A DNA stretch of 64,000 nt from an uncultured Acidimicrobiales bacterium (GCA_963695075.1 CAVOFR010000007.1:1616904-1680903); one strand, 5' to 3'. Counted from the first letter of the stretch, positions 44,798-64,000 are shown. Numbers and translations: made by a program. Notes: generated from the letters alone by a model not told the origin.

Positions 44798-46414
44798 ATG
44801 GTCGGCGCGATGAACTGGCTCGAAATCCCCGATCCCGACGATCGGCTGCTCGGTCGTTGTCTGCGTCGACAGGCCGATGAGAACGGCGACACCGACTTCC
44901 TGATCGAGGACACGACCCATTTCACGTTCGCCCGAGCCAACGAGGTCGTCAACGGCTTCGCACGGGGTTTCGCCGAGTTGGGCGTATCGAAGGGCGATCC
45001 GGTCGCGTTCCTCATGGGGAGCGGCGCCGACGTCGTGTTCTCCGCTCTGGCGCTCAACAAGCTCGGAGCGATCTGGACCCCGGCCAATACCGAGTACAAG
45101 GGGGTCTGGCTGGAGGAGAACCTCCGAGCCGGCGGGGCGAAGCTCCTCGTGGCCGACGCCGACCTGCTGGCGAACGTGGCGGCGCTCGATTCCCTGCCGT
45201 TCGAACGAGTCCTCGTGCGCGGCGAGCCGCGGGTCGATCTCCCCGTTCCCGTCGAGCCGTTGGAGGCGTTCGCGGATCTGATCGGTGACGAACCGGACGA
45301 CAGCGACCTGCACAGCGGCGATCCCGCGTGCATCCAGTGGACCTCGGGAACGACTGGCCGCGCCAAGGGTGTGATCCAGAATCACAACGTGTGGATCCGA
45401 GCGGCGGACATCGGAGCGCGCACCGCCGGTCTACGCGAAGGTGACGTCATCCACAACTGCCTTCCGCTGTACCACTCCGGCGCCTGGGTGGCGAACATCT
45501 TCCGTGCGCTGGTCACCGGTGTCCCGTGTGGACTGGATCCGTCGTTCTCGGTGGGGGAGTTCTGGGATCGCACACGCCACTACGGGGCGACGATGGTGTT
45601 CACCCTCGGCGCGATGCACATGTTCCTGTGGAACCAGCCCGAACGCGACGACGACGCCGACAACCCCGTTCGTGTGGCCAGCTTCATCCCGCTGCCCGAA
45701 GACATGGTGCCCGGGTTCAAGGAGCGCTTCGGGATCGACGAGATCTTCCAGGGCTATGGCCAGAGCGAGTGCATGGCCTCGATCTCGCGGGTCCATGGCC
45801 GGACCTACAAGCCGAACTCGTTGGGCGAAGTGGTCGACGGTGTCGAGGTGGCATTGCTCGACGACCGTGATGTTCCCGTTGCCGTGGGCGAGACGGGCGA
45901 GCTGTGCATTCGCCCGACCGAGCCCGATGCCATCTTCAGCGGCTACTGGCAGAACCCTGCCGCCACCGTCGAAGCGTGGCGCAACCTGTGGTACCACAGC
46001 GGCGATCTGATGCGCTGCGACGCCGACGACGAGTACTTCTTCGTCGATCGCAAGCAGGACTTCATCCGCTACAAGGGTCGCAACATCTCCTCGTTCGCTG
46101 TCGAGGCGACGGTCAACGCGCACCCTGCTGTGGCCGAGTCGGCGGCGCACGGGGTGGTGTCCGCCGAGCTCGAAGCCGAAGCCGAGATGAAGGTCTGCGT
46201 GGTTCTCGTCGCCGGCGAGAGCCTGACCGCGGAGGAGCTGTGTCGGTTCGTCAATGACAACGCGCCCTACTTCTTCGTACCCCGCTATGTCGAGTTCATC
46301 GTCGAGCTGCCGCGAACCCCGACGGACCGGGTGCGCAAGTATCAGCTCAGGGAGCGCGGTGTCACCGCGGACACCTGGGACGGCATCGCGGCGGGATTCG
46401 AGATCAGGCGGTAG
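44798..46414 (+). CDS. Acyl-CoA synthetase (AMP-forming, full-length ANL enzyme)
   Basis: IQWTSGTTGRAKGV P-loop, GYGQSE, WYHSGDL..FFVDRKQDFIRYKGRNIS, C-terminal RVRKYQL. ATG 44798 after GAAGG; ATG 44810 is also possible. Confidence 0.85.
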   Translation: MVGAMNWLEIPDPDDRLLGRCLRRQADENGDTDFLIEDTTHFTFARANEVVNGFARGFAELGVSKGDPVAFLMGSGADVVFSALALNKLGAIWTPANTEYKGVWLEENLRAGGAKLLVADADLLANVAALDSLPFERVLVRGEPRVDLPVPVEPLEAFADLIGDEPDDSDLHSGDPACIQWTSGTTGRAKGVIQNHNVWIRAADIGARTAGLREGDVIHNCLPLYHSGAWVANIFRALVTGVPCGLDPSFSVGEFWDRTRHYGATMVFTLGAMHMFLWNQPERDDDADNPVRVASFIPLPEDMVPGFKERFGIDEIFQGYGQSECMASISRVHGRTYKPNSLGEVVDGVEVALLDDRDVPVAVGETGELCIRPTEPDAIFSGYWQNPAATVEAWRNLWYHSGDLMRCDADDEYFFVDRKQDFIRYKGRNISSFAVEATVNAHPAVAESAAHGVVSAELEAEAEMKVCVVLVAGESLTAEELCRFVNDNAPYFFVPRYVEFIVELPRTPTDRVRKYQLRERGVTADTWDGIAAGFEIRR

Positions 46415-48134
46415 TCCCGGGTTGGTCGGCCGCTCCCACCCCGAGGTTGAGCGGTACGTTTCCGAGGTTCTCGAGGAACCAATCGAGCGGTTGGGCCCGC
46501 CACCACGGGACATCCCGACATCCGAGATCCTCGGCGACCTCGACGGCGGTCAGATAGCCCGAGGCGAGATGCGTGGCGCCATAGGGGTGGATCGAGTTGG
46601 ACAGGTAGAGCCGTGGCAGGAAGCTGCGCGAAACCCCCCGGGTGATGATCCCGGGCAGCGGGCGGCTCTCGGCGTACTGCTCGGGGATCGCGCTGCCACC
46701 GATCATGTTGCCCCGGACCGCCGAGGGGTTGCCCATCTCCTGGTCGAGGGGGGTCATCACATGGCGTTCGACGATCTGGTTCGTGAACCCGGGTACGTAC
46801 TCCTCGAAGCGCGCCGTCACCGCGTCGGCCAGCGGCCCGGCGATACCCGGCCAGGCATCCCAACCGTCGAGGGCGGCGCCGCGCCACCGACGGGGGCAGG
46901 GCGGCACGCTGACCCAGAGGTAGGCGGTGTGGCACCCCACGGGGGCCTGGGTGGGGTCGGCGCGGGTCGGGATGAACCATCCGCCCATGAGCTCGTCGGG
47001 GATCAGGCCCTGTCCCAGCTGGGCGAAGCAGTGGCCCATCCCCGACAGTGTCTCACCGCCGAAATAGCCGACCCAGGAGCGCTGGACGCTGGCGTCATGA
47101 GCGGCGGAGGCGAAGACGGGGTCGCTGTCGAGGGCGTACATGACCGCGAACAGCTGCGGGTCGTCGTAGTTGAAGCGCTTCACGAGCCGGGAACGTTCCG
47201 CCCCGATGGTCTCCTCGCCGACCAGGTGGAGGAAGGTCGGGGCGAGCGTGAGGTTGGAGATGACCACGCGAGCGGTCACTCGTTCGCCGGGCCGTAGTGC
47301 ATCCGGCGCCAGTTCGACCCCGTAGGCCGAGTTGTCCTCCACGAGGATGCGCTCGACCGGGCAGGTACCCCAGATCTCACCGCCGTTGGCGACGACGCAC
47401 TTCACCAGGGAATGGGTCAGGGCATGGGAGCCACCCACCGCGGTGTGCACCGCCATCGGTTGCAGACCCGACAGGCTGAGGGCGAGCGGGCCCAGGCGCC
47501 GGTTGGTCGGCCACTGACCGGTGAACTCCCCGAGGGCTGCGGGAGTGGTGCGGACCTCCTCGGACTCGAAGAGCATCCCGAGCAGTTCCAGACCGCTCAT
47601 GCGCAGCACGTCGTCGCCGCTGAGGGGCAGCCCGAGACGATCCAACAGCCCGGCGTCGAAATCGGCCATGGCATCGAACACATCGGCGGTTGGCGGTCCG
47701 TAGAGCAGGCGGCGGTTCAGCGACAGGGTGTCGTCGAGGTGCTCGACCAGGTAGTCGGCGATCGTCGCCTGAACGCCGGCATCGTGGTCGGACGCCGCGG
47801 CGAGGCTCGCGGCGGTGATCTGGGGATCGAGGGCCTGCACCACGTTGCGTCCGGAGGAGAACGTCTTGGCGAACAGTACGTCGGTGCCCCGCAGGTGCAG
47901 TCCGGACGACTCGAGCTCGAGATCCGCCATGGCGGGGCTCATCGCGGGCACCAGCCACTGGGCATGGGTGTTGTGCAGGAAACCGGGCAGCCCCAGCTCG
48001 ACGGTGTCGCAATGCGCCCCGCACTGCCCCCTCGCCTCGAACACGGCCACGGCGAGTCCGGCCTTGGCCAGATAGGCGGCCGTCGTCAGTCCGTTGATTC
48101 CACCGCCGATGACGATGGCGTCATAGTCAGGCAA
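46404..48134 (-). CDS. FAD-dependent oxidoreductase, CrtI family (paralog F)
   Basis: YDAIVIGGGINGLTTAAYLAKAGLAVAVFEARGQCGA. C-terminal ..AEDLG..VPWW shared with paralogs D, E, G and H. Confidence 0.8.
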   Translation of the reverse strand: MPDYDAIVIGGGINGLTTAAYLAKAGLAVAVFEARGQCGAHCDTVELGLPGFLHNTHAQWLVPAMSPAMADLELESSGLHLRGTDVLFAKTFSSGRNVVQALDPQITAASLAAASDHDAGVQATIADYLVEHLDDTLSLNRRLLYGPPTADVFDAMADFDAGLLDRLGLPLSGDDVLRMSGLELLGMLFESEEVRTTPAALGEFTGQWPTNRRLGPLALSLSGLQPMAVHTAVGGSHALTHSLVKCVVANGGEIWGTCPVERILVEDNSAYGVELAPDALRPGERVTARVVISNLTLAPTFLHLVGEETIGAERSRLVKRFNYDDPQLFAVMYALDSDPVFASAAHDASVQRSWVGYFGGETLSGMGHCFAQLGQGLIPDELMGGWFIPTRADPTQAPVGCHTAYLWVSVPPCPRRWRGAALDGWDAWPGIAGPLADAVTARFEEYVPGFTNQIVERHVMTPLDQEMGNPSAVRGNMIGGSAIPEQYAESRPLPGIITRGVSRSFLPRLYLSNSIHPYGATHLASGYLTAVEVAEDLGCRDVPWWRAQPLDWFLENLGNVPLNLGVGAADQPGTTA

Positions 48135-49788
48135 GGTAGGTTCTCGTGTACTTGTCCATCTCGGGCGTGGGCTTCCACCAGCGCTCGACCCCGAGGTCGT
48201 CCGCGACCTTGTTGGCAGCCAGGTATCCCGGCCCGCCGATCACGAGCCCGCCGGGGTAGGTGGAGGCACCGCCGACGTACAGCCCCTCGATGGGCGTGTC
48301 GGTGCCCGAGCAGTCCTGGTTGGGTCGGTAGGCGCCCAGCTGCAGCGGGTTGTAGTCGCCGTGCTTGATCGATCCACGGCGCATGTTGGGCATGCGGATC
48401 TCGATGTCCTCCGGCGTCTCGGTCGCGGTCATCAAGATGTTGCCGGCTCCCATGTTCGGAGCCGCTCTGCGCCACTTCGCCAACATCGCCTCTTCGATCT
48501 CGGGCCGACGCGCCTCCCAGCCGCCGGCGATGTCGTAGGGCGCGTGCATCTGGAAGAACGACACGTGCTTGCCGGGCACGCGGCTGAGATGGGGATCGAA
48601 CTGCGTCTGCCAGGTGGTGTGGCCGCCGAAGGCGTCCATGTCGATCGCGCCCGCCTGGACCGCCTGCCAGTGGGCGAGCAGCTGGTCGGTGCTCTCGATA
48701 CCCACGATGGTCATGAAGCTGTCCCGAACCGAGGCGTCGCGGCAGTTGTACCCGGGGGGCTCGTCGGTGGCCACGTGCACCGTGGTGTAGCTCCACTTGT
48801 CGAGCTCCCAGCCCGATACGTCGTCCTCGAGATGCCCCGGCAGGTTCTCCGCGCCGACGAGATCGAGGAACGTCGTCTCTGGATCCAGGCTCGAGACGAC
48901 CACGTTGCTCGTGAGCGTGCGCCCCTCCCACAGCTCGACCCCTGTGACAGCACCGTCGTGGGTGGTGATCCGGTTGACCTGGGAGGAGTCGAGGATGCAG
49001 CCCCCGGCGCGGATGATCTCCTTGGCCAGCGACGAGGCCAGCTTGTGGGAGCCGCCCTGGCAGTAGGCCTTGTTCATGCCGCGGTCCAACAGGAGCGGCA
49101 CGAAGAACCCGACCCCGCTCTCGTCGGGGTCGAGACCCCACATGCACGTGGTGTACAGCAACAGGGCGCGTACCCTGTCGTCCTCGAAGTTCTCGGTGAT
49201 GATCTCGAGCGGGCTCTGTTCGCTGAGCTCGAGCAGAACTTCGCCGACCTCGGTGCGCTGCATGGCCTCGATCAGGTCCAGCGGTGCCATCGGTGGGATG
49301 TAGGTGGCAGGGGCGACGATCTCACGAGCGACCTTGCGCCAGGTCCGCATGATCTCGCCGAAGGCGACAGCGTCGCGCGTGGAGAACTTGTGGATCGAGT
49401 CGACCGTGTCCTCCAGCATGCGGGTGAGCTGCAGCGAGCTGCCGTCCTCGAAGACCATCGATGTCTGCTGGTTGGGTTTGATCCAGACGAGGCCGTGCTC
49501 GCTCAGCTCGAAGTCGCGCAGCACCGGCATGAAGTCGGTCATCATGTGGTAGACGGCGTGGATGTTGGAGTAGTACCCGGGAAAGAGGATCTCCTCGGTG
49601 GCCAGGCCACCACCTATCTCGTAGCGTCGTTCGACCAGCACCACCTTGAGGCCGGCTCGGGCCAGGTAGGCGGCGGTGATCAGGCCGTTGGGACCTGCAC
49701 CGATGACGACCACGTCCCACTCGCTCTCGATGGGGAACTCCGAGAAGAAGCTCTGGGGATGGGGTCGGCCGACCAGTTCCTTCGGCAT
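48127..49788 (-). CDS. FAD-dependent oxidoreductase, CrtI family (paralog E)
   Basis: The ATG at 49788 overlaps the stop of paralog D (ATGA). WDVVVIGAGPNGLITAAYLARAGLKVVLVERRYEIGGG. The stop overlaps the start of paralog F by 8 nt. Confidence 0.8.
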   Translation of the reverse strand: MPKELVGRPHPQSFFSEFPIESEWDVVVIGAGPNGLITAAYLARAGLKVVLVERRYEIGGGLATEEILFPGYYSNIHAVYHMMTDFMPVLRDFELSEHGLVWIKPNQQTSMVFEDGSSLQLTRMLEDTVDSIHKFSTRDAVAFGEIMRTWRKVAREIVAPATYIPPMAPLDLIEAMQRTEVGEVLLELSEQSPLEIITENFEDDRVRALLLYTTCMWGLDPDESGVGFFVPLLLDRGMNKAYCQGGSHKLASSLAKEIIRAGGCILDSSQVNRITTHDGAVTGVELWEGRTLTSNVVVSSLDPETTFLDLVGAENLPGHLEDDVSGWELDKWSYTTVHVATDEPPGYNCRDASVRDSFMTIVGIESTDQLLAHWQAVQAGAIDMDAFGGHTTWQTQFDPHLSRVPGKHVSFFQMHAPYDIAGGWEARRPEIEEAMLAKWRRAAPNMGAGNILMTATETPEDIEIRMPNMRRGSIKHGDYNPLQLGAYRPNQDCSGTDTPIEGLYVGGASTYPGGLVIGGPGYLAANKVADDLGVERWWKPTPEMDKYTRTYLA

Positions 49789-51533
49789 CAGCCCGCCACC
49801 GTCCATGCGTCGTTGGCGTTCGAACCGTGGGCGGAGCGCTTGCCCTCGGTCGGTATGTACCAGGGGGAGGCGTACCACCAGTCTCCCGGCTCGGCGACCT
49901 CGTCCTCGATGAGTATGTGCATCAGGTTGTAGGCGACCGCCATCAGGCAGAGGCCGCCGGGATGCGACGAGGACTGGTGGGCGAGGTACAACCCCTCGAT
50001 GCCCGGAACGCGGTTGCGGGAGAGCTCCGGAAGGGGTCGCTCGTTCCACCACTGGTCGCGGTCGCAACGGATGCCGTACCACGATCCGCCGAGCATGCCG
50101 GTGTTGCGCATCTCCTGCTCGTAGGGCGAGTCGGTGAACATGCGGATCAGATTGTCGTCATCCAGGTTCTCCACGATGCAGGCCAGGCTCGCCCGCATGA
50201 ACTCGGCCCAGCGCTTCTTCTCGTTCTCCTTGTCCATGGCATCCAGGCCGTCGACGTTGTACTCGGGCGTGGGGACCATCATCCACAGAGGTCCGTTGAT
50301 GTGTTGGCCCGGGCGGGTGCTCTGGGGGTTTGTGGGGTCGTACAGGGAGGCGGCCACCATGCCCCACATGGCCTCGTCGGGGGAGAGGGTGAGGTTCTCC
50401 TGGCGGCCGAGCACGTTCTCGACGTTCTTGAAGTAGATCTCGCGGGACTCCATGTTGAAGAAGGCGCCGGTGAACTGGTCGTTGGGAGGGGGTAGGCGGT
50501 ACTTCTCCCGGTAGCGGAACTCCTCATGGGTGAGGTAGTGCGACATGAAGAGGCTGCCGCCCTTGAGGCTGAGGTCGCGGATGCGCTGCAGGAATCCGGC
50601 GTCCAGGTGCCGGGGGCCGATCATGTCGAGGAACGTGTGCTTGATGTGGGCCGCGCTGATCACGGCCTTCCGGGCGTTGATGACCTTGGTTCCGAACGTG
50701 GAGTCGTCGCTGATGCGCACGCCGGTGGCACGGCCGTTGCTGATGATGATCTCCTCCACCGGGCAACAGGCGCGGAACACCGCGCCGTGGGCCGTCGCGC
50801 AGCGGAAGAGCGCATGGAAGTAGCCGTGCATGTTGCCCCGAGCGGCGACCGGCTTCGCGACCGCAGGGGGCATCACCGTGGCGGAACTGCACATGGCGGG
50901 GATGGCGACACCCTCCATGTGGCCGTGCGCTCCCGAGCTCAGAGCGATGTACGCCTGGGTCACCTTGAACGGCTCGGTGTCGAGGTACTCGTCCATGAGG
51001 TCGAACATGGTCATCTCGAGCAGTTCCGGAGTCCACACGTCGGGCTCGTACTGCTTGTAGACCTGCATGAACGGGATGTTGTACTCATCCAGTTCGACTT
51101 CGGCGGGGTGTGGGGGGCACCAGAAGGTGGCGCGCATGAGGTCGCGGAAGGCGTCGTCGCCCGCGAGCATGCAGGAGATCTTGGCCCAACCCATCATGTC
51201 CTTCTCGGTGACCTTGGAGAGCCCGTCACGGGTGAAGATGTAGCGGTCGGTGTTGAGCTCGACCTCGACGCGTGGGTCCCAGTCCATCCGGAAGCCGTAC
51301 TTCCAGAGCTCGAGCTGTTCCCATCCGGGAGCCGAGCCGCCGTAGTTGGCGATGGCGTGGGGCTGGATGCGCACCCCCGCGATGGGCTCGGTCGTCTCCT
51401 GGCCTCCACCGCACTCCGGGCGCTCCTCCAGCACGCAGACGCTGAGACCGGACTTCGCCAGGTAGGCGGCCGTGCTGGTGCCGTTGTGCCCGGCACCGAT
51501 GATCACCACATCGAAGGTCTCTTCCTTGGCCAT
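49788..51533 (-). CDS. FAD-dependent oxidoreductase, CrtI family (paralog D)
   Basis: ATG 51533 within ORF 49788..51665. FDVVIIGAGHNGTSTAAYLAKSGLSVCVLEERPECGGG. Confidence 0.8.
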   Translation of the reverse strand: MAKEETFDVVIIGAGHNGTSTAAYLAKSGLSVCVLEERPECGGGQETTEPIAGVRIQPHAIANYGGSAPGWEQLELWKYGFRMDWDPRVEVELNTDRYIFTRDGLSKVTEKDMMGWAKISCMLAGDDAFRDLMRATFWCPPHPAEVELDEYNIPFMQVYKQYEPDVWTPELLEMTMFDLMDEYLDTEPFKVTQAYIALSSGAHGHMEGVAIPAMCSSATVMPPAVAKPVAARGNMHGYFHALFRCATAHGAVFRACCPVEEIIISNGRATGVRISDDSTFGTKVINARKAVISAAHIKHTFLDMIGPRHLDAGFLQRIRDLSLKGGSLFMSHYLTHEEFRYREKYRLPPPNDQFTGAFFNMESREIYFKNVENVLGRQENLTLSPDEAMWGMVAASLYDPTNPQSTRPGQHINGPLWMMVPTPEYNVDGLDAMDKENEKKRWAEFMRASLACIVENLDDDNLIRMFTDSPYEQEMRNTGMLGGSWYGIRCDRDQWWNERPLPELSRNRVPGIEGLYLAHQSSSHPGGLCLMAVAYNLMHILIEDEVAEPGDWWYASPWYIPTEGKRSAHGSNANDAWTVAG

Positions 51534-51615
51534 CGTTGCCCCCTCGCCCGGAACCAGAGCTTGTATGGCTCCAGTATATGCGCCGAAAGCTTTCTGGGAA
51601 GGAACCTCGTCGGCC

Positions 51616-52161
51616 TCAGCGGCGGGTGCCGTCCTCGATGATGGTGAGCAGGCTCTGCACGGCATCGTTGATCGCCCCGAGGTCCGGGGCCGACTTGAGC
51701 AGTTCGTGGGTCCTGGTCAGGAAGGCCTGGAACGCCGCTTCCTCGACCTTCATACCTGCCGCCGTGAGACGAACGAGCTTGCTGCGCTTGTCGGAGGCGT
51801 TGGGTCCGCGCTCGACGAGCCCCACCGACTCCAGGCGCTTCAGCATCTTCGTCATGCCGCCCGAGGACCGCTCGAGGGCGGTGTAGAGCTCATTGGGAGC
51901 GAGTGTGTAGGGCGGTCCGACGCGGCGCAGCGCGGCGAGCACGGCATAGTCGCTCGGCATCAGGTCGAAGGGCTGGAGGGTGACCTGCTCGAACTCGTCC
52001 ATCAACTGGCTCAACCGCTCGAGGCGAGCGATCAGGAGCACGCCGGAGGTGTCCGCGGCATCGGGGTATTCCCGCGCCCACGCTTCGGTGAAGGCGTCAA
52101 CGCGCCGCGTCGTCGTCACGATCGTCTCACGCCGCGGACGATAGCCCTGAACCACGGGCAT
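51616..52161 (-). CDS. MarR-family transcriptional regulator
   Basis: PSDYAVLAALRRVGPPYTLAPNELYTALERSSGGMTKMLKRLESVGLVERGPNASDKRSKLVRLT. I chose ATG 52161 because the upstream part of track ORF ..52278 has AT-rich third positions and contains a palindrome. Confidence 0.75.
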   Translation of the reverse strand: MPVVQGYRPRRETIVTTTRRVDAFTEAWAREYPDAADTSGVLLIARLERLSQLMDEFEQVTLQPFDLMPSDYAVLAALRRVGPPYTLAPNELYTALERSSGGMTKMLKRLESVGLVERGPNASDKRSKLVRLTAAGMKVEEAAFQAFLTRTHELLKSAPDLGAINDAVQSLLTIIEDGTRR

Positions 52162-60020: not shown

Positions 60021-60416
60021 ATGGATCTCTGGTCGAAGGGTCTCGGAAAGCGAGTGCTGAGCTTGGCGCTTCGCGAGCGTGACTCCACGAACATCATCGA
60101 CGACGAGCTCGTGATCGAGGGCGTCATGCATTCCCCGACGTTCTGGGACTACGCGGTCACCCTCGACCGCCGTGACGTCACCGAGTTCCTCGGGTTGCTC
60201 CAGGAGCCCGAGGCCGTGCGCTTCGTCGGCGAGGACGAGCATCGCACCGAGATCCTGAGGACGGCGTTGTCCAGTGCAGTAGTGTTCGCGGCGCGTACCC
60301 TGCGGATGCTCGTCATCGGGCCGCCGGCGCCCGAACCGGCGAGTGTCAACCCGAGCGATGACAGGGCGACCCACGACAACCCGATCGACAGGGAGCTGAC
60401 CGATGGCGGGACCTGA
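60021..60416 (+). CDS. Small conserved hypothetical protein (MDLWSKGLGKR.. family), copy 1
   Basis: 131 aa, high third-position GC. Clear paralog of the ORF starting at 63765. Overlaps the next gene by 14 nt. Confidence 0.6.
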   Translation: MDLWSKGLGKRVLSLALRERDSTNIIDDELVIEGVMHSPTFWDYAVTLDRRDVTEFLGLLQEPEAVRFVGEDEHRTEILRTALSSAVVFAARTLRMLVIGPPAPEPASVNPSDDRATHDNPIDRELTDGGT

Positions 60417-62115
60417 TTCCGAGTACGACGTCATCGTCGTCGGGGGTGGCATCAACGGTCTGACCGCGGCCACCTACCTCCAGAAGTCGGGTCTGAGTGT
60501 CGCGTGCTTCGAGCGGAAGCTGGAAGCGGGCGCCGGGGCATGTACCGAGGAAGTGATGCACCCTGGCGTCAAGGTCAACCTCTGCGCCTGCAACATGGTC
60601 ACGCTGTGGTCACCGGCCTACGGAGACCTCGAGCTCGAGAAGTTCGGCCTCGAGATGCTCACCTCCAGTGGATGGGGCATGTTCCACCCGTTCAAGGATC
60701 GCTCGGCGGTGATGTTCCACTCGTGGGACGCACAGAAGACCTACGAACAGTGGTCGACGATCAACAGCAACGACGCCGACATGTTCAAGACCGCCTACAA
60801 CGCCCTGGCGCCGATGATGGACGTCACGCTCCACTCGACCCAGTACGAGCAGGCGCTGCAAGGACCCGAGGAGGTGGCCGCTCCGGGAGGGATGGTGCAG
60901 ATGCTCCGGGCGCTGCTCCCCCAGATTCCCGAGAACGTCCACGAACTCAACGCCATCGACCTGGCCGAGGCTGTCTACGAGGACGAGAAGATCCGCACCG
61001 CGGTCCTCTCGGCCTGCGTCATGGCCGGCGCGCACCCCTGGGATCGCGGCATGACGACGCTCATGCCGATCATCTTCCCGATCCTCCAGTCCGTGCAGAG
61101 CGTGACGTGGACCTGTCGCGGTGGTAGCCACTCGTTGACCCACGCCCTCTGCTCCGCATTCGCGGCCCATGGCGGCCGACTGTTCACCGGCTGCCCGGTC
61201 GACCAGATCATCATGGACGGAGACGAGGCGAAGGGCATCGTCCTGTCGGAGCACGCTGCCTATCCCGAAGCCGAGGTGAGAGCCCGCCGAGCCGTAATCA
61301 GCAACCTCTCGTGCCACCCGACCTTCCTCGACCTCATCGGCGAGGAGAAGCTCCCCGACTGGGTCGCCGACGGGGTGCACGCCTACAAGAACGACGAGAC
61401 GGTGCTGTTCGCCAACTACTGGGTGCTCGACAAGCCGCCCAGTTGGGACGGCTATCCCGAAGGGCTCGACACCGCCTTCGGTTTCAACTACGGGCTCGAG
61501 ACCGTCGAGGACATCCGTCGGCTGGAGCACTGTCTCGAGAATGACGTCCTGCCCGACCCACCGATCGTCTCCGGCCTCTCGGTGCAGGGCTTCGCCCTGG
61601 CCGATCCCACCCAGGCACCCCCCGGGCAGTACACGATGATGTCGTGGGCCAACGTGCCGTACAAGCTCCCCGAGCACGGTGGTTCCGAGAACTGGGACGC
61701 GATCCGCGAGGGCTACGGCGACAAGGTCGACGCGCTCCTGGCCGAGTACAACCCGGGTCTGATGGACTCGGTGGTCGCCCGTTACTGCAACTCCCCGCTC
61801 GACTACTACCGCAAGAACCCCAGCCAGGTCATGGGGTCGACGACCAGCGGGGCCACGAGCCTCCAGTGGTTCGGCAACGCACGTCCCTTCCCGGGCTGCG
61901 GCGCGCCGCGCACCCCGTTCGGCAACCTCTACCTGTCGAATTCGATCTGGCCTTTCGGTACGACGACGTTGGGCGCCGGATACGTGGCCGCCACCATCGT
62001 CGCCGACGACCTCGGTGTCCGTGGGGGCCAGGAGTGGTGGCGCTATCGAGCCCTCGAGGCTGGAAAGGAGACCCTGGCCAGACGCGGCATCGAGACCGGT
62101 GCTCCGATCGTCTGA
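60403..62115 (+). CDS. FAD-dependent oxidoreductase, CrtI family (paralog G)
   Basis: YDVIVVGGGINGLTAATYLQKSGLSVACFERKLEAGAG. C-terminal ADDLGVRGGQEWW. Confidence 0.8.
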   Translation: MAGPDSEYDVIVVGGGINGLTAATYLQKSGLSVACFERKLEAGAGACTEEVMHPGVKVNLCACNMVTLWSPAYGDLELEKFGLEMLTSSGWGMFHPFKDRSAVMFHSWDAQKTYEQWSTINSNDADMFKTAYNALAPMMDVTLHSTQYEQALQGPEEVAAPGGMVQMLRALLPQIPENVHELNAIDLAEAVYEDEKIRTAVLSACVMAGAHPWDRGMTTLMPIIFPILQSVQSVTWTCRGGSHSLTHALCSAFAAHGGRLFTGCPVDQIIMDGDEAKGIVLSEHAAYPEAEVRARRAVISNLSCHPTFLDLIGEEKLPDWVADGVHAYKNDETVLFANYWVLDKPPSWDGYPEGLDTAFGFNYGLETVEDIRRLEHCLENDVLPDPPIVSGLSVQGFALADPTQAPPGQYTMMSWANVPYKLPEHGGSENWDAIREGYGDKVDALLAEYNPGLMDSVVARYCNSPLDYYRKNPSQVMGSTTSGATSLQWFGNARPFPGCGAPRTPFGNLYLSNSIWPFGTTTLGAGYVAATIVADDLGVRGGQEWWRYRALEAGKETLARRGIETGAPIV

Positions 62116-62136
62116 TCCCTCCGCCAGGAACAAGCC

Positions 62137-63765
62137 ATGGCCAATCTCGAGCGTGAGTACGACGTCATCATCGTCGGCGGTGGACCCAACGGGCTCGTCG
62201 CCGCCTCGTATCTCGGCCGGGCCGGGGCGAAGGTGCTGCTGTTGGAGCGGCACCACGAGCTCGGCGGGGGACTGATCACCGAGGAGTGGTCGGGCTTCCG
62301 TTTCAACACCCACGCCAAGCTCATGATGATGATGGACGTGGCCCCGGCCTACACCGATCTCGAGCTCGAGAGTTGGGGCTGCACGTACAAGAGGCCCGAC
62401 GCGGCGGCTGCCATCTTCACGCGCGACGGGCGGGCGCTGACCCTGTACTCCGACATCGAGCGCACCGCGGCATCGATCGCCCGATTCTCGCCGACCGACG
62501 CGGACACTTACGTCGAGGTCATGAACGAGTGGGATCTCATCGTCGACGAGGCGCTCGTCCCCGCGACATTCACGCTGCCGATGCCGATGCTCGACATGGT
62601 GGTCTCGTACCAGCAGACCGACATCGGCGAGGCCGTCAACGAGATGGCCGAGGAGACGTTCCTCGAGACACTCGACGCCGCCGGTTTCGAGAGCGAACTG
62701 CTCAAGACGGCCATCCTCTACCTCGGCACGATGTACGGCATGGATCCCGACGGCGGCCTGGGCTTCCTCCTCCCGCTGTTCTACAACCGCATCCTGCGAT
62801 CGAGCATCATCTCGAACGGCTCGCATCAGCTGGCAGGCTCGCTGGCGCGCTTCGCGAACAACAACGGAGTGACCCTCGAGAGGGCAGCACCGGTCGCCAG
62901 GATCCTCTGCGACGGGACCAAGGCCGTAGGCGTCCGGCTCGAGTCCGGCGACGAGGTCTTCGCCAAGAAGATCGTCACGACCACCGACCCGCAGATGACG
63001 TTCCTCGAGATGGTCGGCGAGGACGTGTGCAACCAGGCGTCTCCCACCCTGGTCGATCAGACCAAGGCGTGGGAGTGGGAGTCGACCAGCACGGTCAACG
63101 TGCACTACGCGCTCGATCGGCGGCCGGAGCACACCGCCGCCGCCTTCGATCCCGACGCCGACCGCGCCCTCGTCAAGATCATGGGCGTCGAGACGGTCGA
63201 GGAGCTCCTCGCTCACATCGACGGCGTCCGCGGCGGTCGGTTCGGCCTGGTGGGCGCCGGGATGACGCTGACCGACTTCGACCCCATGCAGGCGCCGATC
63301 GATGTGGAGCCGGGCTCGGCGGTCGCGTGCTGGGAGACGCTCGCCCCCTACGACAACGCGGACGGCGACTGGGACGATCTGGCCGAGGGCTACTCGAAGC
63401 AGATCCTCGACTCGTGGGCCGAATACGCGCCGAATCTGGCCGACGCGACGGTGGTCCGCAGTTACGTCAACCACCCTCGCTACATCGAGGCCAAACTGCC
63501 GAACATGAAGAGGGGCTCGATCAAGCACGGGGCGTACGTCACCACGCAGATGCTGTCCAACCGGCCCAACGTCGACTGCTCGAGTCATCGGACCCCGATC
63601 GAGAACCTCTACCTCGCCGGCGCGAGCGTCTGGCCGGGGGGAATGGTGCTGCTCGCGGGTGGGTACAACGCCGCTGGTGTCGTCGCCGACGACCTGGGAA
63701 TCGACCGTTGGTGGGACGAGCCCGACTTCGTCATCGCGGCCCGCGAGCAAGGGCTGGTGGGCTGA
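62137..63765 (+). CDS. FAD-dependent oxidoreductase, CrtI family (paralog H)
   Basis: YDVIIVGGGPNGLVAASYLGRAGAKVLLLERHHELGGG. C-terminal ADDLGIDRWW. Confidence 0.8.
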   Translation: MANLEREYDVIIVGGGPNGLVAASYLGRAGAKVLLLERHHELGGGLITEEWSGFRFNTHAKLMMMMDVAPAYTDLELESWGCTYKRPDAAAAIFTRDGRALTLYSDIERTAASIARFSPTDADTYVEVMNEWDLIVDEALVPATFTLPMPMLDMVVSYQQTDIGEAVNEMAEETFLETLDAAGFESELLKTAILYLGTMYGMDPDGGLGFLLPLFYNRILRSSIISNGSHQLAGSLARFANNNGVTLERAAPVARILCDGTKAVGVRLESGDEVFAKKIVTTTDPQMTFLEMVGEDVCNQASPTLVDQTKAWEWESTSTVNVHYALDRRPEHTAAAFDPDADRALVKIMGVETVEELLAHIDGVRGGRFGLVGAGMTLTDFDPMQAPIDVEPGSAVACWETLAPYDNADGDWDDLAEGYSKQILDSWAEYAPNLADATVVRSYVNHPRYIEAKLPNMKRGSIKHGAYVTTQMLSNRPNVDCSSHRTPIENLYLAGASVWPGGMVLLAGGYNAAGVVADDLGIDRWWDEPDFVIAAREQGLVG

Positions 63766-64000
63766 TGGACTTCTGGTCGAAGGGCCTCGGCAAGCGCACG
63801 GTCAGCCTGCGGTTGAGCGACGGTGAGGCCATCAAGAGCGGAGACCGGCTCTATGTCAGGGGGACGACCGAGGAGCCGGTCGTGTGGGACTACATCATGC
63901 CGTTGCAGGGCGACGACCTCGTCGAGGTCGTCGGTCTCCTGGGTGATCGGCGCGTCGTCGAGTACCTGTACCGGTCGCCGGATCGGTGGCGGCTCTACGG
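63765..64000 (+). CDS. Small conserved hypothetical protein (MDFWSKGLGKR.. family), copy 2; truncated by the window end
   Basis: My own translation: MDFWSKGLGKRTVSLRLSDGEAIKSGDRLYVRGTTEEPVVWDYIMPLQGDDLVEVVGLLGDRRVVEYLYRSPDRWRLY.. The ATG overlaps the TGA of paralog H. Confidence 0.6.
   Translation, partial: MDFWSKGLGKRTVSLRLSDGEAIKSGDRLYVRGTTEEPVVWDYIMPLQGDDLVEVVGLLGDRRVVEYLYRSPDRWRLY

What the first reader, a model, noticed from the sequence alone, without database searches (positions are those of the whole stretch)
60021..64000. A CrtI-like pair bracketed by two copies of a small uncharacterised protein (MD[LF]WSKGLGKR.. family)
Seen in the sequence:
- ORF 60021..60416 (131 aa) and the ORF starting at 63765 (cut by the window end) are clear paralogs: MDLWSKGLGKRVLSLAL..FWDYAVTLDRRDVTEFLGLL against MDFWSKGLGKRTVSLRL..VWDYIMPLQGDDLVEVVGLL.
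- Copy 1 overlaps paralog G by 14 nt. Copy 2 shares ATGA with the stop of paralog H.
- I recognise no domain in either copy.

Inference: a dedicated accessory subunit (chaperone, substrate-carrier or assembly factor) for this subclass of CrtI-like enzymes. A third oxidoreductase gene probably follows beyond the window.
Basis: partly seen in the sequence, partly recalled or inferred. Interest (0 to 1): 0.65.

Follow-up and report, generated by a model that had tools for sequence, protein, structure and literature searches.

The report
Unnoticed small partners of oxygen-free flavoenzymes
Two small related proteins of an undescribed family flank a two-subunit flavin enzyme of the limonene-dehydrogenase / sterol delta-24-desaturase type, and the family sits beside such enzyme pairs in about 50 loci from several phyla, including the published Sterolibacterium desaturase, so these enzymes probably have overlooked extra components.

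Summary
ORF 60021-60416 (131 aa) and the ORF starting at 63765 (152 aa in the full genome) are real paralogs (33% identity, E 6e-19) under purifying selection. They match no Pfam, NCBIfam, PDB sequence or PDB fold.

The genes between them are not carotenoid CrtI enzymes. They are an alpha/beta pair of the CtmAB (limonene dehydrogenase) / delta-24-steroid desaturase family.

The small family has about 220 clusters at 50% identity in 1.84 billion proteins. It lies next to such pairs in nearly every informative locus, in three layouts:
- small-alpha-beta-small, as here, in at least four phyla;
- alpha-beta-small-small, or a fused tandem;
- small-alpha-beta.

The third layout includes a 145-aa ORF 136 nt upstream of the characterised Sterolibacterium denitrificans desaturase genes, which the paper describing that enzyme does not mention.

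In 301 Acidimicrobiia genomes, the 10 that carry the family are exactly the 10 with close beta homologs.

My best reading is that these are dedicated non-catalytic partner subunits, one per flavoprotein. In this layout they would hold the complex at the membrane. The role is inferred, not shown.

The predicted third oxidoreductase does not follow. Homology to ctmC/ctmD could not be tested.

The parts
60021..60416 (+). small_A, 131 aa. Member of an undescribed small-protein family whose N-terminus starts with the near-invariant MxxWSKGLG motif.
   Evidence: ORF. 45 close homologs, all 'hypothetical'. Family profile finds 220 clusters at 50% identity in 1.84e9 proteins. No Pfam or NCBIfam hit. 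dN/dS about 0.2.
60021..60236 (+). Conserved N-terminal domain of small_A (residues 1-72): five beta-strands followed by two helices.
   Evidence: AF2 on the domain alone gives mean pLDDT 85.7. Invariant across the family: S5, G7, G9, G34, W42, with D52 invariant or nearly so. No PDB fold match; best Foldseek E is 0.22.
60243..60317 (+). Long moderately hydrophobic helix of small_A (residues 75-99, RTEILRTALSSAVVFAARTLRMLVI), followed by a poorly conserved disordered tail to 60413.
   Evidence: AF2 helix 75-99, pLDDT above 90. Best 19-residue Kyte-Doolittle mean is 1.51, with two Arg in the window. Tail dN/dS is 0.36-0.73.
60403..62115 (+). G, 570 aa: alpha-type subunit of a CtmAB / delta-24-steroid-desaturase-family flavoenzyme. 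Overlaps small_A by 14 nt.
   Evidence: 34% identical to Sterolibacterium denitrificans delta-24-SD alpha over 571 aligned positions. Falls in the alpha clade of the tree. 63% identical to its ortholog in a distant MAG.
60583..60585 (+). Cys61 codon of G, at the position of the FMN-bearing His57 of delta-24-SD alpha (GVKVNLCA in place of GFLFNTHA).
   Evidence: The Cys is conserved in all layout-I alpha orthologs, including those in other phyla. The flavinylation motif is taken from PMC11061730.
62137..63765 (+). H, 542 aa: beta-type subunit of the same enzyme.
   Evidence: 38% identical to delta-24-SD beta. Falls in the beta clade. Pfam Amino_oxidase, DAO and NAD_binding_8 hits.
62311..62313 (+). 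His59 codon of H, inside GFRFNTHA. This is an exact match to the published covalent-FMN motif.
   Evidence: Motif G-F-L/R-X-N/S-T/L-H-A and His58 of delta-24-SD beta are from PMC11061730.
63765..64000 (+). small_B, cut by the window end (full length 152 aa, to position 64223 in window numbering). Paralog of small_A. Its ATG shares one base with the stop codon of H (TGATG).
   Evidence: Its helix LVLGGARFLVLLLKYMIIG is more hydrophobic (19-residue Kyte-Doolittle mean 1.88). It is followed by a conserved EEPTIQVPPP motif and a basic tail.

Best explanation
What it is. The four genes form one translationally coupled cassette: small_A, alpha (G), beta (H), small_B. G and H are the two flavoprotein subunits of an enzyme of the CtmAB (limonene dehydrogenase) / delta-24-steroid desaturase family. 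This family oxidises allylic C-H bonds of terpene or sterol-like chains without oxygen.

small_A and small_B are ancient paralogs of an undescribed protein family. That family is encoded almost only beside such alpha/beta pairs.

How it most likely works (inferred, not shown):
- Each small protein binds one flavoprotein through its conserved N-terminal domain of about 70 residues. The result would be a pseudo-symmetric alpha-beta-A-B unit.
- In this layout, the hydrophobic helix and the basic, proline-rich tail after the domain would hold the complex at the cytoplasmic face of the membrane.
- That is where a greasy substrate would sit, and probably the electron acceptor too.

The small proteins carry no conserved Cys or His pattern for a redox cofactor, so they would be non-catalytic.

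Shown versus inferred. Shown: the paralogy, the family, its exclusive gene linkage, and the tandem fusions. Inferred: physical binding, stoichiometry and membrane tethering.
For: Gene linkage:
- Layout I (small-alpha-beta-small) occurs in every informative locus from the genome collection. These come from Acidimicrobiia, Myxococcota, Pseudomonadota and unclassified MAGs.
- Distant family members follow an alpha/beta pair as two genes (L023, L024, L025, L032) or as one fused tandem protein (L022, L033, P0201-P0204).
- The metagenome scan gave 16 of 16 informative adjacent cases and 2 exceptions.
- Sterolibacterium denitrificans has three members, each upstream of a Ctm-like cluster. One is a 145-aa ORF 136 nt upstream of the characterised delta-24-SD alpha gene.

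Genome-level co-occurrence:
- In 301 Acidimicrobiia genomes, the 10 with the family are exactly the 10 with beta homologs at E <= 1e-90.
- None of the 35 genomes with only distant COG1233 relatives has it.

Coupling and stoichiometry:
- 14-nt and 1-nt overlaps with the flavoprotein genes.
- Two small genes per two large genes.
- Natural fusions of the two small proteins.

Structure:
- Confident small beta-plus-helix domain, then a long helix.
- The helix reaches transmembrane-like hydrophobicity in 51% of B/s2-type and 37% of A/s1-type members.

Electron-transfer context:
- Some loci add membrane electron-transfer modules next to the cassette: Fer4_11 plus NrfD in L024, and a cytochrome b / Fer4 fusion in L032.
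Against: - No direct evidence of binding exists.
- The published delta-24-SD preparation showed only two major bands near 60 kDa. Its activity was entirely in the soluble fraction and worked with an artificial acceptor (PMC11061730). The small protein is therefore not needed for in-vitro turnover, or was lost, or was overlooked.
- The helix usually holds one or two Arg or Lys residues. In the s3 subtype, which includes the Sterolibacterium protein, it is not hydrophobic (median 1.09). Membrane tethering therefore cannot be the family's universal role.
- Other Ctm-like clusters in this genome have no detectable member: window 46404-51665, and the clusters on contigs C8, C2 and C3.
- One metagenome locus (L038) has a small-small pair with no flavoprotein gene within 1 to 2 kb.
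- No RNA or proteome data could be found for this stretch.
Confidence: 0.5

Rival explanations
1. Transient maturation factors. Each small protein would help one flavoprotein fold or attach its flavin covalently, in the manner of SdhE/SDHAF2 for SdhA, or of the small cytochrome subunit needed for flavinylation of p-cresol methylhydroxylase. It would then leave the mature enzyme.
For: - The purified, active delta-24-SD was reported as alpha plus beta only, although a family member is encoded 136 nt upstream.
- Both subunits of that enzyme carry covalent FMN.
- One small gene per flavoprotein gene in layouts I and II.
- The most conserved part is a compact domain with no cofactor motif.
Against: - There is no similarity to any known flavinylation factor.
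- Hydrophobic helices and long tails are not expected of a soluble chaperone.
- Layout III has one small gene for two flavinylated subunits.
- In layout I the alpha subunit has lost the flavinylated His, yet keeps its own small partner.
- Several Ctm-like pairs have no detectable member.
Confidence: 0.25
2. Substrate hand-off proteins. The small domain would bind the hydrophobic isoprenoid or sterol-like substrate, or pull it from the membrane, and deliver it to the active site. This would be the job proposed for SCP2 proteins in other Ctm-like operons.
For: - Substrates of the two characterised relatives are water-insoluble.
- Earlier notes of this scan describe SCP2 genes in other Ctm-like operons (unchecked leads).
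- Members have a membrane-affine helix.
Against: - There is no SCP2, START, lipocalin or other lipid-binding signature or fold match.
- A 70-residue domain is small for a sterol pocket.
- The invariant residues (S5, G7, G9, G34, W42, D52) look structural rather than pocket-lining.
Confidence: 0.12
3. Adaptor to the physiological electron acceptor. The small proteins would dock the flavoenzyme onto whichever partner the host uses: ETF, ferredoxin, or a membrane NrfD- or cytochrome b-type module. They would carry no cofactor themselves.
For: - The natural acceptor of delta-24-SD is unknown, and only half of its flavins are reduced by substrate without an acceptor.
- The electron-transfer genes next to the cassettes vary while the small genes stay: Fer4_11 plus NrfD, and a cytochrome b / Fer4 fusion.
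- An etfBA operon lies in the same window.
Against: - This overlaps largely with the best explanation and cannot be separated from it by sequence.
- A conserved adaptor for partners that are not conserved is hard to picture.
- No co-variation data are available.
Confidence: 0.1

Closest known systems
[quoted passage not shown]
   Same: - It has adjacent alpha/beta paralogs of about 60 kDa.
- G is 34% identical to alpha and H is 38% identical to beta over their full length.
- H keeps the exact covalent-FMN motif.
- The Sterolibacterium locus also encodes a member of the small-protein family, directly upstream of alpha: 145 aa, E 4e-15 against a profile built only from this window's subtype.
   Different: - The published enzyme is described as alpha4-beta4 with no third component.
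- Its locus has one small gene of the s3 subtype without a hydrophobic helix, not two.
- G carries Cys where alpha has the flavinylated His.
- The true delta-24-SD orthologs in this genome are other genes: window 46437-48134 (58% to alpha) and C7:1574773-1578065 (52% to alpha, 59% to beta).
- The substrate of G/H is unknown.
Limonene dehydrogenase CtmAB and the ctmABCDEFG cluster of Castellaniella defragrans (PMC4109377)
   Same: - It is a two-subunit flavoenzyme of the same family.
- ctmA and ctmB are followed by two orphan hypothetical genes, ctmC and ctmD. This is the gene order alpha-beta-small-small found here in layout II loci.
   Different: - Homology of CtmC and CtmD to this family was not tested, because their sequences could not be fetched.
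- They did not appear by name in the word-indexed profile search.
- CtmC and CtmD were not detected in that study's proteome.
- The Castellaniella cluster adds a ferredoxin and a ferredoxin reductase, which are absent here.
Small subunits of other heteromeric flavoenzymes: SoxD/SoxG of heterotetrameric sarcosine oxidase, and the SdhC/SdhD anchors of succinate dehydrogenase (own knowledge)
   Same: - These are small non-catalytic subunits encoded in the operon of a covalent-flavin enzyme.
- SdhC and SdhD are a paralogous pair that anchors the enzyme to the membrane.
   Different: - There is no sequence or fold similarity.
- SdhC and SdhD are polytopic and bind haem and quinone. The proteins here have at most one marginal hydrophobic helix and no cofactor motif.
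CrtI-type phytoene desaturases
   Same: - They share the Rossmann-type FAD fold and COG1233 membership.
   Different: - G and H score 49 and 75 bits against a crtI_fam cut-off of 238.
- No carotenoid genes are nearby.
- CrtI works as a single polypeptide with non-covalent FAD (PMC11061730).

Membership tests
CtmAB / delta-24-SD flavoenzyme family (for G and H) | Adjacent, co-directional alpha and beta paralogs of about 55-63 kDa | tested here: met
   G is 570 aa and H is 542 aa, 21 nt apart and 30% identical to each other. They fall in separate alpha and beta clades together with SD-alpha and SD-beta.
CtmAB / delta-24-SD flavoenzyme family (for G and H) | Full-length similarity to a characterised member | tested here: met
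   tblastn of SD-alpha against G: 34% over 571 aligned positions, E 5e-82. SD-beta against H: 38% over 525, E 4e-101.
CtmAB / delta-24-SD flavoenzyme family (for G and H) | Covalent-flavin motif G-F-L/R-X-N/S-T/L-H-A near the N-terminus of both subunits | tested here: inconclusive
   H has GFRFNTHA (His59), an exact match. G has GVKVNLCA, with Cys61 in place of the His. The Cys is conserved in all layout-I orthologs. So the motif is met in beta and not met in alpha.
CtmAB / delta-24-SD flavoenzyme family (for G and H) | Covalently bound FMN and oxygen-independent allylic oxidation activity | not testable with these tools
   This needs a purified enzyme.
CrtI / phytoene desaturase family (TIGR02734) | Score at or above the curated cut-off of the family model | tested here: not met
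   G scores 48.8 bits and H 74.6 bits against a cut-off of 238.1. The best NCBIfam hit, CrtO, scores 126 and 178 bits against a cut-off of 1000.
The new small-protein family (small_A, small_B) | N-terminal M-x-x-[WRK]-S-x-G-x-G starting at residue 1, plus G34, W42 and D52 in a domain of about 70 residues | tested here: met
   Both copies carry all of these residues. Profile E-values in the own genome are 1e-52, 4e-34 and, for the third copy, 5e-09.
The new small-protein family (small_A, small_B) | Encoded next to a Ctm-type alpha/beta pair | tested here: met
   Here the copies overlap or abut G and H. The same holds in about 45 informative loci elsewhere, with 2 exceptions.
CtmC / CtmD of Castellaniella defragrans | Sequence homology to CDM25288 and CDM25287 | not tested
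   The sequences could not be fetched, and the 2018 JBC paper is not held. Only the gene order matches.
SCP2 / other lipid-carrier folds | Pfam SCP2 or a related profile, or a fold match | tested here: not met
   No Pfam or NCBIfam hit at E <= 1. Best Foldseek E against PDB is 0.3 for the whole protein and 0.22 for the domain.
SdhE/SDHAF2-type flavinylation factors | Profile or fold similarity | tested here: not met
   No profile hit. The predicted fold is beta-rich, not a helix bundle.
Membrane-anchor subunits (functional class) | A hydrophobic segment long and apolar enough to span or dip into the membrane | tested here: inconclusive
   The best 19-residue Kyte-Doolittle mean is 1.51 in small_A and 1.88 in small_B, each with two charged residues. 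Family medians are 1.65 (B/s2), 1.45 (A/s1) and 1.09 (s3). The fused forms have a charged linker between the two domains, which argues against two membrane passes.

The most novel reading that the evidence does not exclude
The family would be a general, overlooked component of the whole CtmAB / delta-24-SD enzyme class. It would include CtmC and CtmD of limonene dehydrogenase and the 145-aa ORF in front of the Sterolibacterium desaturase genes. It would supply the missing link between the covalent-flavin subunits and their physiological electron acceptor or the membrane. That would bear on why the natural acceptor of both characterised enzymes is unknown, and why only half of the delta-24-SD flavins react in the purified alpha-beta preparation.
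Probability: 0.3. Interest if true: 0.75.

Novelty: new variant of a known kind. Interest (0 to 1): 0.62.

Why it matters
CtmAB and delta-24-SD are the only studied members of an enzyme class that functionalises terpene and sterol chains at allylic carbons without oxygen. Their subunit make-up, flavin chemistry and natural electron acceptor are still open questions.

A dedicated small-protein family that travels with these enzymes across phyla changes what should be expressed, purified and modelled. It sits unreported in front of the genes of the published desaturase.

It also gives a simple sequence marker, the N-terminal MxxWSKGLG motif. This marker picks out this enzyme class among the many look-alike 'phytoene dehydrogenase' annotations in sediment and soil metagenomes.

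Tried and rejected
- Pfam, NCBIfam and PDB sequence searches of the small proteins found nothing. Two Foldseek searches gave only noise (Sso7d, Pur-alpha, the PH lobe of FERM domains; E >= 0.2).
- A true transmembrane anchor is not supported as a family trait.
- The idea that small-bearing enzymes form one clade was rejected. Layout I is monophyletic in both the alpha and the beta tree. Layout II alphas and the L024 beta group with the delta-24-SD clade, so the partner is probably ancestral or was lost and gained several times.
- The search for Castellaniella ctmC/ctmD failed:
  - The named profile search returned only uncultured sources.
  - The Burkholderiales sample of 400 genomes held the family only in S. 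denitrificans.
  - The metagenome loci had no ferredoxin or reductase after the small genes.
  - The 2018 paper is not held.
- No RNA runs hold this stretch.
- The plasmid collection holds only one distant homolog of H.
- The 245-aa downstream gene could not be identified (D27-like_C at E 0.064 only; no PDB hit).
- I ran no further search on the natural fusion protein, because the tool returns no contact information.


Full report
**1. The observation**

The ORF list shows small_A at 60021..60416 (131 aa), G at 60403..62115 (570 aa), H at 62137..63765 (542 aa), and an open frame starting at 63765. The window is C7:1616904-1680903 of a 4.65-Mb assembly. In the full contig, small_B ends at window-equivalent position 64223 and has 152 aa.

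The two small proteins align at 33% identity over 118 residues, E 6e-19. small_A overlaps G by 14 nt.

Neither small protein hits Pfam or NCBIfam at E <= 1. Both look like genuine coding genes:
- GC3 of small_A is 0.86, the same as its neighbours.
- dN/dS over residues 1-100 is about 0.16-0.30 against three orthologs of each copy.
- The tail of small_A evolves much more freely, with dN/dS of 0.36-0.73.

**2. What lies between and after them**

G and H have the N-terminal dinucleotide fold. They fall far below the curated CrtI-family cut-off (49 and 75 bits against 238).

The literature search led to limonene dehydrogenase CtmAB (PMC4109377) and delta-24-steroid desaturase (PMC11061730). The desaturase sequences are printed in that paper's supplement.
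- G is 34% identical to the alpha subunit and H is 38% identical to the beta subunit, each over the full length.
- H carries GFRFNTHA, an exact match to the published covalent-FMN motif.
- G carries GVKVNLCA, with Cys61 where the flavin-bearing His sits. That Cys is conserved in all orthologs of this cassette, even in other phyla.

The closest delta-24-SD orthologs in this genome are other genes: window 46437-48134 (58% to alpha) and a pair 40 kb upstream of the window (52% and 59%).

After small_B comes a conserved 245-aa gene with no FAD motif, then a PNPOx-like gene and two SDR genes on the other strand. The predicted third oxidoreductase is not there.

**3. The small proteins form a family**

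A word-indexed search found 45 relatives of small_A. All are unnamed or annotated 'hypothetical', and most come from Acidimicrobiia-type metagenomes. A profile search of 1.84 billion representatives found 220 clusters at E <= 1e-3.
- The listed members are 60-309 aa long.
- In nearly all of them the match starts at residue 1.

Across a diverse alignment, S5, G7, G9, G34 and W42 are invariant. M1, L8, Y44 and D52 are nearly so.

AlphaFold2 predicts five short strands (residues 2-48), two helices (50-71) and a long helix (75-99), then disorder. The first 72 residues modelled alone reach pLDDT 85.7. Foldseek against the PDB gives nothing better than E 0.2 for either model. A PDB sequence-profile search gives nothing below E 0.09.

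**4. Gene linkage**

This is the main result. The family sits beside Ctm-type alpha/beta pairs in three layouts.

*Layout I: small-alpha-beta-small, as in this window.*
- The genome-collection scan returned 17 loci from Acidimicrobiia, Myxococcota, Pseudomonadota, a Spirochaetaceae bin and unclassified MAGs.
- Every locus with enough flank has layout I. One locus is masked, and one has a frameshift in small_A.
- The alpha subunit is 63% identical between this genome and an unclassified MAG, while small_A is only 37% identical.

*Layout II: alpha-beta-small-small.*
- Distant family members sit directly after an alpha/beta pair as two genes in L023, L024, L025 and L032.
- In L022, L033 and P0201-P0204 the two are fused into one tandem protein of 281-299 aa.

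*Layout III: small-alpha-beta.*
- The cluster holding the desaturase beta subunit led to the S. denitrificans genome itself.
- A 145-aa ORF without Pfam hits lies 136 nt upstream of the alpha gene.
- It scores E 4e-15 against the profile built only from this window's subtype, and 1e-30 against the wider profile.
- It belongs to the same subtype as the third copy in this genome.
- S. denitrificans has two more members, of a divergent subtype of about 83 aa. Each lies upstream of another Ctm-like cluster.

*Metagenome scan.* It gave 22 loci: 16 informative ones, all adjacent to a beta-like or alpha-like gene; 4 too short to judge; and 2 exceptions (L038 and L055).

**5. Co-occurrence at genome level**

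Among 301 evenly drawn Acidimicrobiia genomes, 10 hold the family. The same 10, and no others, have a homolog of H at E <= 1e-90. None of the 35 genomes with only weaker COG1233 hits has the family.

Nineteen of the 21 family matches lie within 4 kb of a listed beta-like match. The other two cannot be judged, because only four matches per genome were scored.

In 400 Burkholderiales genomes drawn around S. denitrificans, only S. denitrificans has the family. The family is therefore rare and follows the enzyme, not the taxon.

**6. What the family does not follow**

In this genome the profile finds only three members. Four other Ctm-like clusters have none: window 46404-51665, and the clusters on contigs C8, C2 and C3.

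In the flavoprotein tree, layout I is monophyletic in both the alpha and the beta half. Layout II alphas and the L024 beta group with the delta-24-SD clade. The partner is probably old in the family and has been lost, or has diverged beyond detection, several times.

**7. The mechanism**

The arguments for stable, stoichiometric partners, one per flavoprotein, are:
- translational coupling;
- the two-for-two gene count;
- the parallel paralogy (alpha/beta and A/B);
- the recurrent fusion of the two small proteins.

The segment after the domain is hydrophobic enough for membrane insertion in about half of the B/s2-type members and a third of the A/s1-type members. It is not hydrophobic in the s3 type. 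It usually holds one or two basic residues and is followed by basic, proline-rich tails. In the fused proteins the two domains are joined by a long charged linker, which does not fit two membrane passes.

I therefore read the helix as a peripheral or in-plane membrane tether in layouts I and II. The conserved function would lie in the N-terminal domain.

Some loci place NrfC/NrfD-type or cytochrome b / ferredoxin genes beside the cassette. This fits an enzyme that hands electrons to the membrane.

Against a stable subunit:
- The published desaturase preparation was soluble.
- It showed two bands near 60 kDa.
- It turned over with DCPIP.

A transient maturation role therefore stays a serious rival. 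Binding, stoichiometry and location are all inferred.

**8. Context**

The window is an island of oxygen-independent lipid-oxidation genes: EBDH/S25DH-type molybdoenzymes, etfBA, DUF35/thiolase pairs and acyl-CoA dehydrogenases (earlier notes).

Around layout-I cassettes in other genomes the recurring genes are a TetR regulator, family-III CoA-transferases or an acyl-CoA ligase, SDRs, an APH-type kinase, a FadL-type porin and an OYE-type reductase. The substrate is unknown. It is probably a hydrophobic acid or CoA ester with an allylic position.

**9. Limits**

- Homology of CtmC and CtmD to this family could not be tested.
- No transcript or peptide evidence was available.
- No multimer model could be made with the tools at hand.

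Noticed in passing
window 60583-60585 (Cys61 of G); same position in L001-L021 alpha orthologs: In every small-alpha-beta-small cassette the alpha subunit has Cys (NLCA[CS]N) where delta-24-SD alpha and CtmA have the FMN-bearing His. The beta subunit keeps the His. This could mean a cysteinyl-flavin link, or an alpha subunit without covalent flavin.
   Followed up: partly
genome C7:1569008-1578089 (48 to 39 kb upstream of the window start): A third family member (206 aa, long Ala/Lys-rich tail) heads an operon of five FAD genes. The last two are the best delta-24-SD alpha/beta orthologs of this genome (52% and 59%). What looks like a BadF/BcrA-type ATPase gene and further genes follow; these were judged by eye from their N-terminal sequences and not searched.
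   Followed up: partly
window 46404-48134 (-): Paralog F of the D-E-F trio is 58% identical to the S. denitrificans delta-24-SD alpha subunit. This is closer than G. No family member is detectable next to this trio; a MarR gene sits upstream instead.
   Followed up: partly
genome, window-equivalent 64278-65015 (+), just past the window end: A conserved 245-aa Cys-rich protein follows small_B here and in four other Acidimicrobiia-type loci (L001/L006, L007, L008, L009). Its only hint of identity is a sub-threshold match to the D27-like beta-carotene isomerase C-terminal domain (E 0.064). It has no PDB relative.
   Followed up: partly
L027:3680-4117 (S. denitrificans LT837803.1); also L029:1087-1335 and L030:4127-4375: S. 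denitrificans has three members of the family. Each lies upstream of a Ctm-like gene cluster. Two are a divergent subtype of about 83 aa beginning MLMRSTGLGK. None is mentioned in the paper on the desaturase.
   Followed up: yes
L024:4372-6671 and L032:710-2434: In two distant loci the cassette is flanked by membrane electron-transfer genes: an NrfC-like 4Fe-4S protein plus NrfD, and a cytochrome b fused to a ferredoxin domain.
   Followed up: no
L021:6001-6391: In one Actinomycetes MAG the small_A reading frame is broken and runs on into the alpha gene frame. This is either a frameshift pseudogene or an assembly error.
   Followed up: no
L038:1042-1830: One metagenome contig has two adjacent family genes with no flavoprotein gene in the 1 kb before or the 2.2 kb after them. 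It is the only clear exception to the linkage.
   Followed up: partly
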